From a virus (lineage: Duplodnaviria > Heunggongvirae > Uroviricota > Caudoviricetes): a DNA stretch of 5,145 nucleotides. The notes under the pieces were generated by a model. The model was not told the DNA's origin. It saw nothing but the letters and a program-made list of their open reading frames with translations, and made no database searches. The stretch spans positions 1-5,145 of the IMG/VR virus record IMGVR_UViG_2778261065_000001; one strand, given 5' to 3'. Position numbers and translations under genes: made by a program. Positions 1 to 1,551 of the stretch are shown here, piece by piece (positions within the stretch are counted from its first letter, which is position 1; each line of letters starts with the position of its first letter).

Positions 1-94
1 TTTCAGGGAAGTAATCCATTTCGACTATAACTGACAGGTCATCACGACGTATGACTGCGTATTTGCAACTAAATAGTTTCTTTATTTTTTCCAC
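1..94 (-). CDS. Hypothetical protein, 5' fragment only; gene continues beyond the left window edge
   Basis: Minus-strand frame open from a GTG at 94..92 to position 1 (VEKIKKLFSCKYAVIRRDDLSVIVEMDYFPE...), with GGAGG at 103..99 just upstream (spacer only 4 nt). In-frame stop at 151..149 limits any upstream extension. Too short in-window for the ORF track; no family recognised. Confidence 0.25.
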   Translation of the reverse strand, partial: MEKIKKLFSCKYAVIRRDDLSVIVEMDYFPE

Positions 95-177
95 GATGCC
101 TCCGAGTTTATAAGTACAAACGGTTATATCCACATAGAGACAAAAATATTAATCTGAAAAATATTTATTTCACGCCG

Positions 178-244
178 TATATTTGATTATTTAATGTGCA
201 GGTACAATGACTTTTATTTTTTGTTGTGTATATAATCAAATATA
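178..244. repeat. 13-bp perfect inverted repeat (TATATTTGATTAT / ATAATCAAATATA) with 41-bp spacer in AT-rich intergenic DNA
   Basis: Read directly: 178..190 tatatttgattat is the exact reverse complement of 232..244 ataatcaaatata. The right arm contains a consensus TATAAT (231..236, plus strand). Confidence 0.6.
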
Positions 245-279
245 TGGTTATTTTTCACCCTGCGCATTCAGCGCGCAAC

Positions 280-300
280 AAAAAACCCGCCGAAGCGGGT
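280..300 (-). terminator. Intrinsic terminator of the hok transcript
   Basis: On the minus strand: stem CCCGC / GCGGG (300..296 and 291..287) with a UUCG tetraloop, followed by a run of 7 U (286..280). Sits ~70 nt downstream of the hok stop. Confidence 0.8.
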
Positions 301-368
301 TTAGTGCGGGTGCGTTGAGGATGCCTGACACATGAGAGGTGGCGAGGGATTTCCCCCCGCCTGGTCTC

Positions 369-524
369 TTACTCCTCAGGTTCGTAAGCTGTGAAGACAG
401 CGACCTCCGTCTGGCCGGTTCGGATTCGTACCTCGCAGAGGTCTTTCCTCGTTACCAGTGCCGTCACTATGACGGTTAAACAGATGACGATCAGGGCGAT
501 TAACATCGCCTTTTGCTGCTTCAT
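369..524 (-). CDS. hok: Hok/Gef-family type I toxin (small membrane peptide), 51 aa
   Basis: ATG at 524..522, stop TAA 371..369. Product MKQQKAMLIALIVICLTVIVTALVTRKDLCEVRIRTGQTEVAVFTAYEPEE matches the Hok/Gef pattern (hydrophobic TM helix, conserved ...RKDLCEV.IR.G..EVAVF.AYE) and is near-identical to HokD/RelF as I recall it. AAGGAG lies 9 nt upstream. Confidence 0.9.
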   Translation of the reverse strand: MKQQKAMLIALIVICLTVIVTALVTRKDLCEVRIRTGQTEVAVFTAYEPEE

Positions 525-581
525 AGCCTGCTTCTCCTTGCCTTTCGGCACGTAAGAGGCTAACCTACATTTGTGAGACAT
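369..581 (-). CDS. mok: Mok-like in-frame leader ORF overlapping hok (modulator of killing), 70 aa
   Basis: Six-frame ORF 369..581; ATG at 581..579 preceded by GAGG at 593..590. The N-terminal extension MSHKCRLASYVPKGKEKQA resembles the MokC extension (MLNTCRVPLTDRKVKEKRA) as I remember it. Its start region is exactly where the predicted Sok RNA is antisense. Confidence 0.6.
   Translation of the reverse strand: MSHKCRLASYVPKGKEKQAMKQQKAMLIALIVICLTVIVTALVTRKDLCEVRIRTGQTEVAVFTAYEPEE
538..566 (+). promoter_or_regulatory. Putative sok promoter (-35 TTGCCT 538..543, 17-bp spacer, -10 TAACCT 561..566)
   Basis: Hexamers read on the plus strand, antisense to the hok start region. Same arrangement as the R1 sok promoter, which is embedded opposite the hok RBS. 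Predicted TSS about 573..575. Confidence 0.45.
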
Positions 582-645
582 AGATTGGGCCTCAGATTAA
601 TGTTAAGCGTCTTGCAGGACGCGTAATGTTAACTGGGGCTTTTCT
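573..645 (+). ncRNA. sok: Sok-like antisense RNA (type I antitoxin), about 70 nt
   Basis: Predicted from the promoter at 538..566. Single-stranded 5' tail about 573..588, then a long imperfect hairpin 589..639 (outer stem GCCUCAG/CUGGGGC with one G-U; inner stem closing on loop UUGCAG 612..617), then UUUUCU at 640..645. Antisense to the mok SD and start codon. Confidence 0.5.
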
Positions 646-692
646 CTGTCTGCCTTACAGTGGCATGCCCGAGGCAGACAGCCTCAAGCACC

Positions 693-712
693 CGCAGCAA
701 TCTTACCGATAC
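693..712 (-). promoter_or_regulatory. Putative hok/mok promoter: -10 TAAGAT (705..700), TSS near 693
   Basis: TAAGAT lies 6 nt upstream of GGGUGCUUGAGG (693..682), which resembles the 5' end of R1 hok mRNA and pairs with the 3' fbi element. No convincing -35 hexamer found. Confidence 0.35.
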
Positions 713-862
713 CGATAAGAAAACGCTATTTTTTATTGCCAGCACCTTCTATCCAGGCTAATTTATCTGCGTCAGAACGGCGCAATGCGCTCGCCTGAGA
801 TACGTTTACTTGCCATGGTAACAACAGATAACGGCAATTGTTGTTTCTGTTTTGTTTCCTTC

Positions 863-893
863 AAAAACCCCGGACCATCAATCCGGGGTTTTT
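863..893. terminator. Bidirectional intrinsic terminator between the phage operon and the hok cassette
   Basis: Stem CCCCGGA (868..874) / TCCGGGG (882..888), 7-nt loop, flanked by AAAAA (863..867) and TTTTTGTTTG (889..898). Gives a U-tract in either direction. About 85 nt downstream of the DUF551-like stop. Confidence 0.65.
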
Positions 894-978
894 GTTTGTT
901 ATCCCCAGCGGCAAATCGAATACACCATCAGCGCCACCGCCATTGCGATTCCTGCCGTTGTGAACGCTTCAGGCCAGG

Positions 979-1551
979 TCATTGATTCACCTCCTGCGGT
1001 GGTTCCGGTAGCGGCATCCAGTGAGTTGCCTGCTCAATACCATTACCCGGCTTAATCGTTGCTTCTCCTCGCCGGAATGTGCTTCCTGTATAGCGTGCGG
1101 AGCATATTAGCGGTTCAACCAGAGAGCTATCGAAATTCACCGAAATAAGCACGTTCTGGCCCTTTTCAGGCATTCGATCACTACAGCTTATCCAACTATC
1201 CGGAGTTCCCGGAGTTGGTCCATCGAATTCGGGCATGTCAGGACCTTTTCTGATAGCTTTAGCCAGCTCCAGCGGGTCATCGTAAAGCCAGTCGCCAGTT
1301 TGTGGGTGATTTGCTTCTGCAAGCTGCGCAGCCCATTCAAGACCATCTTTTTGACCTTGGAGATAATCAAGCGGCAACTCTTCATGATTACTTGCAGGTT
1401 CTGCACTATCAGCTTCGCGCCGCTTCTGTAGCTCTGCTGCCATCGCTCTCACGACTTCAACTGGTGCCCTTGCAGCAAACTCTATGTTGGTGATCAGCTC
1501 ATTAAGATATTGCTCGCTGGGATACTGTTTCTTATCGGTTATAGTGGTCAT
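979..1551 (-). CDS. DUF551-like phage protein, 190 aa
   Basis: ATG 1551..1549 with AAGGTG 8 nt upstream; stop TGA 981..979. C-terminal region DSWISCSDRMPE ... ATHWMPLPEPP matches the DUF551 signature as I recall it (WIS..DRLPE ... THWMPLPEPP). Confidence 0.75.
   Translation of the reverse strand: MTTITDKKQYPSEQYLNELITNIEFAARAPVEVVRAMAAELQKRREADSAEPASNHEELPLDYLQGQKDGLEWAAQLAEANHPQTGDWLYDDPLELAKAIRKGPDMPEFDGPTPGTPDSWISCSDRMPEKGQNVLISVNFDSSLVEPLICSARYTGSTFRRGEATIKPGNGIEQATHWMPLPEPPQEVNQ

What the first reader, a model, noticed from the sequence alone, without database searches (positions are those of the whole stretch)
308..693. Long-range complementarity between the hok mRNA 5' end and a 3' element (fbi/tac-like)
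Plus-strand 308..320 (GGGTGCGTTGAGG) and 682..693 (CCTCAAGCACCC) are reverse complements apart from one bulged base, about 375 nt apart. In the minus-strand mRNA this pairs the 5' end GGGUGCUUGAGG with CCUCAACGCACCC near the 3' end. This matches the fold-back-inhibition architecture that keeps full-length hok mRNA translationally inert, and supports both the proposed TSS and an intact locus.
Basis: partly seen in the sequence, partly recalled or inferred. Interest (0 to 1): 0.4.

Follow-up and report, generated by a model that had tools for sequence, protein, structure and literature searches.

The report
hok toxin mRNA end-pairing lock
The two complementary stretches are real and are the well-known 5'-3' "tac/fbi" end-pairing that keeps full-length hok toxin mRNA untranslatable, here in an intact hokD/hokW-type toxin-antitoxin locus of an E. 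coli lambdoid prophage, so the finding is correct but ordinary.

Summary
Confirmed and already known. On the minus strand, 693..682 (GGGUGCUUGAGG) pairs with 320..308 (CCUCAACGCACCC): 12 base pairs and one bulged C (window 314), -21.1 kcal/mol. Only 10 of 2000 dinucleotide shuffles match this anywhere in the transcript. The 5' arm begins exactly where the Rfam hok-leader model RF01794 begins (118 bits). The 3' arm lies 48 nt after the stop of a 51-aa Hok/Gef ORF and just before an intrinsic terminator. The MFE fold of the ~420-nt transcript uses this helix, and blocking the 3' arm costs about 15 kcal/mol. In 40 homologous loci (Escherichia, Kluyvera, Photorhabdus, Pantoea, Erwinia) the helix sits at the same place and shows compensatory changes (U-A to C-G at pair 4, G-C to A-U at pair 12). 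RNAalifold recovers it unsupervised. The other hok elements are also present: metastable 5' hairpin, ucb, mok SD, dcb, mok, a Sok promoter and RNA, and a protective 3' stem-loop. With fbi removed, the open tac/ucb fold becomes the MFE or lies within 1 kcal/mol of it. The locus is 92.5% identical to the experimentally validated hokW-sokW of phage VT2-Sakai (Sp5). The tac-to-fbi block occurs in 4006 of 5426 complete E. coli genomes. Transcript ends, 3' processing and translational repression were not tested.

The parts
700..705 (-). Putative hok promoter -10 box (TAAGAT). There is no good -35.
   Evidence: Read. It lies 6 nt upstream of G693. It aligns with TAGAAT of VT2-Sakai hokW and TATGAT of the F/R1-type locus at the same spacing. 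The consensus promoter scan did not flag it. Inferred.
682..693 (-). tac (translational activator element): the 5' end of hok mRNA, GGGUGCUUGAGG, and the 5' arm of the finding.
   Evidence: Rfam RF01794 model position 1 maps to 693. It pairs with fbi in the MFE. Nt 1-3 and 5-8 are invariant in 40 loci.
665..675 (-). Partner of tac in the metastable 5' hairpin of the nascent transcript (mRNA nt 19-29).
   Evidence: The 35-nt fragment folds into this hairpin at -21.2 kcal/mol. It is 96.6% paired across 40 loci with 4 covarying pairs, against 30-51% for slid controls.
635..641 (-). ucb (upstream complementary box, anti-SD), AAGCCCC, mRNA nt 53-59.
   Evidence: It pairs with the mok SD in the full-length MFE and in the RNAalifold consensus. 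It pairs with tac nt 1-3 and 5-8 in the 64-nt fragment, in truncated folds and in the Rfam consensus structure. It is 99.6% paired in 40 loci but invariant.
590..593 (-). mok Shine-Dalgarno, GAGG (mRNA nt 101-104).
   Evidence: Invariant in 40 loci. It is sequestered by ucb in the closed fold and paired to dcb in the open fold.
369..581 (-). mok-like ORF (ATG 581), 70 aa, here in frame with hok.
   Evidence: The same 70-aa ORF is annotated in VT2-Sakai ('gef homolog orf74') and as MokW in phages.
556..559 (-). dcb (downstream complementary box), CCUC within the conserved AGCCUCUUAC (mRNA nt 135-138).
   Evidence: It pairs with the mok SD in the open (tac/ucb) fold of truncated RNA. It is 100% paired in 40 loci and nearly invariant.
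538..566 (+). Putative Sok promoter: -35 TTGCCT (538-543), 17-nt spacer, -10 TAACCT (561-566).
   Evidence: Read. The complement of the -35 is invariant in 40 loci, as are the A2 and T6 positions of the -10. The consensus scan did not flag it because the -10 matches only 3 of 6. Inferred by position and by analogy with the R1/F sequence.
573..643 (+). Putative Sok antisense RNA (~71 nt). It covers the mok start codon and SD, and consists of a long terminator-like hairpin followed by a U-run.
   Evidence: The fold of 573-650 is -35.7 kcal/mol, z = -6.4. The length matches the 71-nt complementarity reported for SokW (PMC8621323). The ends are inferred.
369..524 (-). hok toxin CDS (51 aa, HokD/HokW type), including the stop codon.
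   Evidence: PF01848 HOK_GEF 82.9 bits. It is annotated hokD in near-identical E. coli loci.
341..361 (-). Conserved 3' stem-loop (GGCGGGGG-GAAAU-CCCUCGCC), the likely 3' end and protective hairpin of the truncated active mRNA.
   Evidence: It is present in all folds. The RNAalifold helix at columns 341-348/360-367 has compensatory changes. The role is assigned by analogy with the R1 Tr-hok 3' stem-loop (PMC9841398).
308..320 (-). fbi (fold-back inhibitory element), CCUCAACGCACCC with bulged C314: the 3' arm of the finding.
   Evidence: It lies 44-51 nt after the hok stop in the loci whose Hok ORF was called correctly.
277..302 (-). Intrinsic terminator (stem 302..283, T-run 282..277): the 3' end of full-length hok mRNA.
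   Evidence: Terminator scan and fold.

Best explanation
The two arms are the tac (5' end) and fbi (3' end) elements of a complete hok/mok/sok type I toxin-antitoxin locus of the hokD/hokW subtype, carried on the minus strand of an E. coli lambdoid (Rac/Stx-phage-like) prophage. Proposed mechanism, step by step, with each step marked as shown in silico or inferred.

1. A weak promoter starts the hok mRNA at about G693 (inferred).
2. While the RNA is being made, tac is held in a metastable hairpin with nt 19-29 (shown in silico).
3. Once the fbi is transcribed, just before the terminator, the 12-bp tac/fbi helix closes the ~415-nt molecule. In this state ucb (AAGCCCC) sequesters the mok Shine-Dalgarno, so neither mok nor the coupled hok is translated, and the Sok target is not presented (fold shown in silico; consequences inferred from R1).
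4. Slow 3' exonucleolytic trimming back to the conserved stem-loop (361..341) removes fbi (inferred).
5. tac then re-pairs with ucb, and the mok SD is released to pair with dcb (energetically feasible, shown in silico). The RNA can then be translated, or be bound by the ~71-nt Sok antisense RNA and destroyed by RNase III (inferred).

The overall effect is a stable, inert reservoir of toxin mRNA.
For: Identity of the locus:
- Rfam RF01794 scores 118 bits over 693..519 and starts at 693.
- Hok/Gef PF01848 scores 82.9 bits.
- Near-identical E. coli loci are annotated hokD.
- The locus is 92.5% identical to VT2-Sakai hokW-sokW, with identical tac and fbi. That locus was shown experimentally to be a type I TA (PMC8621323).

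The helix:
- The duplex is -21.1 kcal/mol and 10 of 2000 shuffles reach it.
- It is in the MFE and the centroid of the full transcript.
- Blocking fbi raises the MFE from -175.9 to -160.8 kcal/mol. Forcing tac/ucb in the full-length RNA costs 13.2 kcal/mol.

Conservation and covariation in 40 distinct loci:
- fbi lies 44-51 nt after the hok stop in the loci whose Hok ORF was called correctly.
- 89.8% of cells are paired, against 32-56% in slid controls. Pair 4 is UA 26 / CG 11 / UG 2.
- With the register corrected, pair 12 is GC 23 / AU 15, pair 11 is GC 30 / GU 9 / AU 1, and pairs 9 and 10 also show double changes.
- RNAalifold predicts columns 1-6 with 402-407, together with the ucb/SD helix, unsupervised.
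- Covariation is coupled: tac nt 4 and nt 12 also covary with the metastable partner (CG 12, AU 15 / GC 10). The tac positions that also pair with ucb are invariant.

Strand specificity: 17 G-U/U-G cells against 1 C-A cell in the helix. This fits RNA of the minus strand only.

The switch: with fbi removed, the tac/ucb + SD/dcb fold is the MFE or within 1.0 kcal/mol of it for seven tested 3' ends.

Published model: tac/fbi, ucb, dcb, the metastable structure and 3' processing are described in PMC9841398, which cites Thisted 1995, Franch 1997 and Gultyaev 1997.
Against: - All evidence for this particular locus is computational. No transcript end, processing event or translation assay was available.
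- The consensus scan detected neither the hok promoter nor the Sok promoter, so TSS 693 rests on homology and -10 spacing.
- For some 3' ends the truncated RNA's MFE keeps the metastable hairpin and the ucb/SD pairing, 0.4-1.0 kcal/mol better than the open fold. Thermodynamics alone therefore does not force the switch.
- The tac/ucb and SD/dcb helices never vary in the 40 loci, so covariation neither supports nor contradicts them.
- The 40 loci are phylogenetically related, so cell counts overstate the number of independent events. I estimate six or more independent changes.
- Chromosomal hok loci of E. coli were reported not to mediate post-segregational killing (summarised in bioRxiv 10.1101/2025.08.07.668861).
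Confidence: 0.9

Rival explanations
1. The complementarity is a chance match between two GC-rich 12-mers and has no function.
For: A single 12-bp match with a bulge in 5 kb is not in itself extraordinary. 10 of 2000 shuffles reach the same energy.
Against: - It sits at the exact 5' end of the Rfam hok leader and immediately before the terminator.
- It is kept at the same position in 40 loci from several genera, with compensatory changes.
- RNAalifold recovers it unsupervised.
Confidence: 0.01
2. The arms are DNA-level terminal inverted repeats that delimit a mobile hok cassette, rather than an RNA structure.
For: Homology blocks between this locus and the copies in phage-plasmids and Stx phages begin a few bases upstream of tac and stop at or just after fbi. 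Plasmid hits cover query 65-453, which is window 696..308. VT2-Sakai diverges right after fbi.
Against: - The helix tolerates G-U but not C-A (17 against 1 cells), which is a signature of RNA of one strand.
- A bulge is present, and its position shifts between lineages.
- tac covaries with a third partner, the metastable hairpin, and overlaps a second alternative helix with ucb.
- No transposase or recombinase is associated with the locus.
- Block boundaries at the ends of a transcription unit are expected in any case.
Confidence: 0.03
3. The end-pairing is real, but it mainly protects the mRNA from 5'-end-dependent RNase E and from 3' exonucleases. It would set mRNA half-life rather than act as a translational lock.
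For: Closing both ends in a 12-bp helix would plausibly shield them. Full-length hok mRNA of R1 is described as strongly stabilised by the 5'-3' interaction (PMC9841398).
Against: - In the closed fold the mok SD is paired with ucb, and this helix is conserved. The tac/ucb alternative that frees it is available only when fbi is absent.
- The R1 literature attributes translational inactivity to this arrangement.
- The two roles are not exclusive. As the sole role this reading is unlikely.
Confidence: 0.05
4. The locus is an evolutionary relic. The RNA elements are fossils of a once-active system and no longer regulate anything in this prophage.
For: - Chromosomal hok loci of E. coli were reported to be unable to mediate PSK.
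- Decayed copies exist. relBE-hokD copies keep fbi without tac, L003 has a degraded leader, and L045 has a disrupted hok ORF.
Against: - Every element is intact here: the ORF, the SDs, tac, ucb, dcb, fbi, the conserved Sok promoter positions and the terminator.
- The near-identical hokW-sokW is toxic, is neutralised by SokW, and contributes to phage release (PMC8621323).
- Compensatory changes indicate ongoing selection.
Confidence: 0.05

Closest known systems
hokW-sokW of Sakai prophage 5 / phage VT2-Sakai (E. coli O157:H7), a type I TA (PMC8621323)
   Same: - The locus is 92.5% identical in DNA over about 400 nt, with identical tac (GGGTGCTTGAGG) and fbi (CCTCAACGCACCC).
- It has a 51-aa Hok and a 70-aa in-frame Mok-type ORF.
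- It is also carried by a lambdoid (pro)phage; the window's locus lies between the replication genes and the nin-like genes.
- SokW shows ~71 nt of complementarity to the hokW leader.
   Different: - The Hok C-terminus differs (AVFTAYEPEE here, AVFVDYESEK in HokW).
- The sequence upstream of the -10 and downstream of fbi is unrelated. The window has a clean intrinsic terminator right after fbi, and the aligned Sakai stretch does not.
- The hokW paper did not analyse tac/fbi. It states that whether its shorter RNAs are the truncated form remains to be investigated.
hok/sok of plasmid R1 (and flm of F): the experimentally defined tac/fbi, ucb, dcb and metastable-hairpin paradigm (PMC9841398 and references therein)
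   Same: - The order of elements is the same, and the Rfam leader matches (88.9 bits for the F/R1-type locus L056).
- The 5' end is GGCGCUUGAGG, against GGGUGCUUGAGG here.
- fbi (CUGAAGCGCC) sits between a GC-rich 3' stem-loop and the terminator.
- The AGCCCC ucb, the GAGG mok SD and the AGCCUCUUAC dcb/Sok -10 region are conserved.
   Different: - The Hok protein is only about 44% identical (PMC8621323).
- The R1/F helix is about 7 bp plus an internal mismatch plus 2 bp, whereas here it is 6+6 bp with a bulged C.
- mok is in the +1 frame in F/R1 but in frame with hok here.
- The window's leader carries an extra 17-nt hairpin at 623..607.
- The context is a plasmid rather than a prophage.
hokD (relF) of E. 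coli K-12 Qin prophage, and hokC (gef)
   Same: The Hok protein is 100% identical to the hokD copies in L002-L005. hokC-type loci share the tac sequence and the bulged fbi, CUUCAACGCACCC.
   Different: - relBE-linked hokD copies (L004, L025, L041) lack the whole leader, including tac, mok and Sok. L004 keeps an orphan fbi.
- The window's copy is the intact ancestral-type locus.
- hokC-type leaders lack the 17-nt insert, and their ATG lies 150 nt from the 5' end rather than 169.

Membership tests
[quoted passage not shown] | A small Hok/Gef-family membrane toxin ORF | tested here: met
   The 51-aa ORF 524..369 matches PF01848 at 82.9 bits (cut-off 22). NCBIfam Hok family matches fall below their cut-offs (48.5 against 73). 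RefSeq annotates near-identical copies as hokD.
[quoted passage not shown] | A conserved hok mRNA leader (Rfam RF01794 sequence and structure) | tested here: met
   118.1 bits against a gathering score of 59. The full model 1-157 maps to 693..519 on the minus strand.
[quoted passage not shown] | Long-range tac/fbi pairing between the extreme 5' end and an element just upstream of the terminator | tested here: met
   12 bp plus a bulge at -21.1 kcal/mol. It is in the MFE. It is conserved with compensatory changes in 40 loci, and RNAalifold recovers it.
[quoted passage not shown] | ucb sequesters the mok SD in the closed form; alternative tac/ucb and SD/dcb helices form in the open form | tested here: met
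   The closed pairing is in the MFE and in RNAalifold. The open pairing is the MFE or within 1 kcal/mol of it once fbi is removed, and it is the Rfam consensus structure. Both open helices are 99.6-100% paired but invariant, so there is no covariation evidence.
[quoted passage not shown] | A metastable 5' hairpin that holds tac during transcription | tested here: met
   The 35-nt fragment folds into it at -21.2 kcal/mol. It is 96.6% paired with 4 covarying pairs, and 0 of 500 shuffles reach the observed value.
[quoted passage not shown] | An overlapping mok reading frame with its own SD, upstream of hok | tested here: met
   ATG 581 has GAGG 8 nt upstream and opens a 70-aa ORF. It is in frame with hok, unlike F/R1. 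The frame varies among homologues: 27 of 40 in frame.
[quoted passage not shown] | A cis-encoded Sok antisense RNA with its own promoter, complementary to the mok translation-initiation region | tested here: inconclusive
   A candidate -35 TTGCCT and -10 TAACCT with a 17-nt spacer was found by hand, with the key positions invariant in 40 loci. There is a strong hairpin followed by a U-run. The consensus promoter scan did not report it, and no expression data are available. SokW of the 92.5%-identical locus is validated.
[quoted passage not shown] | Slow 3' processing to a truncated, translatable, Sok-binding mRNA | not testable with these tools
   Only the conserved 3' stem-loop that would end the truncated RNA was seen. 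This needs a rifampicin-chase Northern blot or 3' RACE.
[quoted passage not shown] | Mapped transcript ends that include both tac and fbi | not testable with these tools
   The TSS is inferred from the start of the Rfam model, from the -10 spacing and from alignment with the F/R1-type locus. The 3' end is inferred from the intrinsic terminator.

The most novel reading that the evidence does not exclude
In the prophage hokD/hokW lineage the tac/fbi lock may serve phage biology rather than post-segregational killing. It would hold a stable, inert pool of hok mRNA that is released when Sok disappears at prophage induction, helping lysis as reported for HokW. The lineage-specific single-base bulge would be a tuned weak point that sets how fast the lock opens. 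The bulge is present in Escherichia and Kluyvera loci, absent in Photorhabdus and Pantoea, and replaced by an internal mismatch in the F/R1 type.
Probability: 0.12. Interest if true: 0.3.

Novelty: already known. Interest (0 to 1): 0.1.

Why it matters
It matters mainly as annotation. It shows that this prophage carries a complete, probably functional hok/mok/sok module rather than the truncated relBE-hokD arrangement of K-12, and it fixes the likely ends of the transcript (693 and about 277). The tac/fbi mechanism has been textbook material since the 1990s. This sequence block is present in about three quarters of complete E. coli genomes. The result therefore adds a clean, well-supported example and some covariation data from Kluyvera, Photorhabdus, Erwinia and Pantoea, but no new biology.

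Tried and rejected
1. Cross-pairing energy test: each locus's tac against other loci's 3' regions. It was uninformative. GGGUGC pairs almost as well with GCGCCC through U-G, so own and foreign energies overlap (means -20.5 and -18.7 kcal/mol). I replaced it with column-wise pair counts.

2. The gapless inverted-repeat finder reported only a fragment of the helix because of the bulge.

3. The consensus promoter scan found neither the hok promoter nor the Sok promoter. Both were assigned by hand and by homology, and are marked as inferred.

4. The first R1-type plasmid copy I fetched (L054) has an IS150-family transposase gene annotated just upstream of hok and no GGCGCTTGAGG, so I discarded it. 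L056 was used instead.

5. MAFFT aligned the bulge-less Photorhabdus fbi one column out of register for pairs 7-12. The raw count therefore understates pairing. The register-corrected count is fitted to the structure and should be read with that caveat.

6. The truncated-RNA MFE at 336 kept the metastable hairpin. Scanning seven 3' ends showed that the open and closed folds are within 1 kcal/mol of each other, so the switch is permitted by thermodynamics but not proven.

7. I considered a DNA-level TIR or mobile-cassette reading because homology blocks end at tac and fbi. I rejected it on the wobble asymmetry and the coupled covariation.

Full report
**Observation**

Reading the minus strand and checking by script confirm the sequences. 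Window 693..682 is GGGUGCUUGAGG and 320..308 is CCUCAACGCACCC. They form 6 + 6 Watson-Crick pairs around one bulged C (window 314), with a duplex energy of -21.1 kcal/mol. This is the best site for the 5' dodecamer anywhere in the transcript. Only 10 of 2000 dinucleotide-preserving shuffles of the remaining 410 nt contain a site as good. The gapless repeat finder saw only part of the helix because of the bulge.

**What the locus is**

- Rfam RF01794 matches 693..519 on the minus strand at 118 bits (gathering score 59), with model position 1 at 693. The family is named 'sok' but is modelled on the hok-mRNA strand.
- The 51-aa ORF 524..369 is a Hok/Gef toxin (PF01848, 82.9 bits).
- A 70-aa ORF from ATG 581, preceded by GAGG, is the mok equivalent.
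- An intrinsic terminator (stem 302..283, then a T-run) follows the 3' arm directly.
- The window is the early region of a lambdoid prophage. It carries ydaV-like, DUF1627, DUF977 and DUF551 genes, all on the minus strand, and the toxin is annotated hokD in near-identical E. coli chromosomes.
- The locus is 92.5% identical to the hok locus of phage VT2-Sakai (Sp5), with identical tac and fbi. That locus, hokW-sokW, has been shown experimentally to be a type I TA whose toxin appears on prophage induction (PMC8621323).

**Folding**

The MFE and the centroid of the 422-nt transcript both pair nt 1-12 with nt 374-386 (-176.2 kcal/mol, z = -7.5 against shuffles). For the 416-nt transcript 693..278, constrained folding gives these energies:

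| Constraint | Energy (kcal/mol) |
|---|---|
| Closed fold | -175.9 |
| fbi blocked | -160.8 |
| tac/ucb forced | -162.7 |

In the closed fold the mok SD (nt 101-104) pairs with ucb (nt 56-59).

After removing fbi I tested seven 3' ends between 345 and 321. In every case the fold with tac nt 1-3 and 5-8 paired to AAGCCCC (nt 53-59) is the MFE or within 1.0 kcal/mol of it. In five of the seven, the mok SD is then paired to CCUC at nt 135-138, the dcb; at the two shortest ends (345, 340) it is unpaired or paired locally. For some ends the MFE instead retains the 5' hairpin, so thermodynamics permits the switch but does not dictate it.

Short 5' fragments behave as the published pathway predicts. 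The first 35 nt form a tac hairpin with nt 19-29 (-21.2 kcal/mol), and 64 nt form the tac/ucb stem. These are the metastable, closed and open states described for R1 (PMC9841398).

**Homologues**

A protein-seeded scan of one genome per species returned 53 hok loci. Forty distinct loci have a recognisable 5' motif GGGYGCUUGRRR and enough 3' flank to align full length. They come from Escherichia, Shigella, Kluyvera, Pseudocitrobacter, Citrobacter, Photorhabdus, Pantoea, Erwinia and Kalamiella.

- **Position.** In the loci whose Hok ORF was called correctly, the best partner of the 5' end lies 44-51 nt after the hok stop. The exceptions are L013 and L045, which have no recognisable fbi.
- **Raw counts.** On a plain MAFFT alignment (A1) the helix is 89.8% paired, against 32-56% when the partner is slid. 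Pair 4 is UA 26 / CG 11 / UG 2 / CA 1.
- **Register problem.** MAFFT put the bulge-less Photorhabdus-type fbi one column out of register for pairs 7-12.
- **Corrected counts.** With the register fitted to the structure (a caveat), pair 12 is GC 23 / AU 15, pair 11 is GC 30 / GU 9 / AU 1, and pairs 9 and 10 each show double changes.
- **Unsupervised prediction.** RNAalifold predicts the long-range helix (columns 1-6 with 402-407) together with the ucb/SD helix and the conserved 3' stem-loop.
- **Coupled covariation.** The same tac positions covary with the metastable partner: pair 4, UA 26 / CG 12; pair 12, AU 15 / GU 15 / GC 10. That helix is 96.6% paired. The tac positions that must also pair with ucb (1-3, 5-8) never vary. 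This is the 'coupled covariation' pattern reported for the hok family (Gultyaev et al. 1997, cited in PMC9841398).
- **Strand.** Wobble pairs outnumber C-A 17 to 1, so the constraint acts on RNA of the minus strand and not on duplex DNA.
- **Independence.** The sequences are related, so cell counts overstate independent events. I estimate at least six.

**Comparison with the paradigm**

An F-type plasmid locus encoding the R1 Hok has GGCGCUUGAGG at its 5' end and CUGAAGCGCC between a GC-rich stem-loop and the terminator. The layout is the same but the helix is shorter and mismatched. There mok is in the +1 frame. Here it is in frame with hok, as in 27 of the 40 loci.

relBE-linked hokD copies of the K-12 type lack the leader entirely, and one of them (L004) keeps an orphan fbi. 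'Intact locus' is therefore a meaningful statement about the window's copy.

Homology to phage-plasmid and Stx-phage copies starts a few bases before tac and stops at fbi. I considered a DNA-level terminal-repeat reading for this reason and rejected it on the RNA-specific signatures above.

**Prevalence and novelty**

The 401-nt tac-to-fbi block is found at 80% coverage or more in 4006 of 5426 complete E. coli genomes, with a median of two places per genome that has any match. The mechanism and its phylogenetic conservation were published in 1995-1997 and revisited in 2022.

**Limits**

Nothing here demonstrates the transcript ends, the 3' processing or the translational repression at this locus. 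The consensus scan missed both the hok and the Sok promoters, and they are assigned by homology. The experiments that would settle these points are listed under next steps.

Noticed in passing
window 899..982 (minus) and 862..894: A 27-aa hydrophobic ORF (MTWPEAFTTAGIAMAVALMVYSICRWG) overlaps the stop of the DUF551 gene by ATGA. It has no Pfam or NCBIfam match. A palindromic A5-stem-T5 hairpin follows it and looks like a bidirectional terminator, just upstream of the hok promoter. It could insulate hok from phage early read-through.
   Followed up: partly
window 369..581 (minus): The mok start codon is in frame with hok, so 'Mok' here is an N-terminally extended Hok of 70 aa. In the F/R1-type locus mok is in the +1 frame. 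Among 40 homologues the frame is 0 in 27, +1 in 7 and a short +2 ORF in 5, with no ATG found in one. This fits the view that mok translation matters rather than its product.
   Followed up: yes
window 607..623 (minus): The hok leader carries an extra 17-nt hairpin (CGCGUCCUGCAAGACGC) relative to the Rfam consensus. It is also absent from hokC-type and Photorhabdus loci, but it is shared with Kluyvera and other hokD/hokW-type loci. On the opposite strand it lengthens the predicted Sok terminator stem.
   Followed up: partly
L004, L025, L041, L003 (related loci): relBE-linked hokD copies (K-12 type) have the relE 3' end in place of the whole hok leader, so they have no tac, mok or Sok and no Rfam hit. 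L004 still keeps an orphan fbi. L003 has a decayed leader that lacks tac but has fbi.
   Followed up: partly
window 303..308 and 696..701; L055; plasmid hits H12-H16: Sequence similarity to Stx-phage and phage-plasmid hokD copies begins a few bases upstream of tac and ends at or just after fbi. The sequence beyond, including the terminator, is unrelated. The exchanged module is therefore essentially the transcript from tac to fbi.
   Followed up: partly
window 519..693: Rfam RF01794 is named 'sok antitoxin', but it matches the hok-mRNA (minus) strand and encodes the tac/ucb open-state structure. The predicted Sok RNA is on the plus strand at about 573..643. An annotation taken at face value would put Sok on the wrong strand.
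   Followed up: yes
L013, L045 (related loci): Two hokC-type copies have an intact tac and leader but no recognisable fbi within 160 nt of the expected place. L045 also has a disrupted hok ORF. They are probably interrupted or decayed 3' ends.
   Followed up: no
window 1..270: The AT-rich stretch downstream of the hok terminator has two promoter-like sites on the plus strand (154..183 and 207..236) that point toward the hok 3' end. Their significance is unknown.
   Followed up: no
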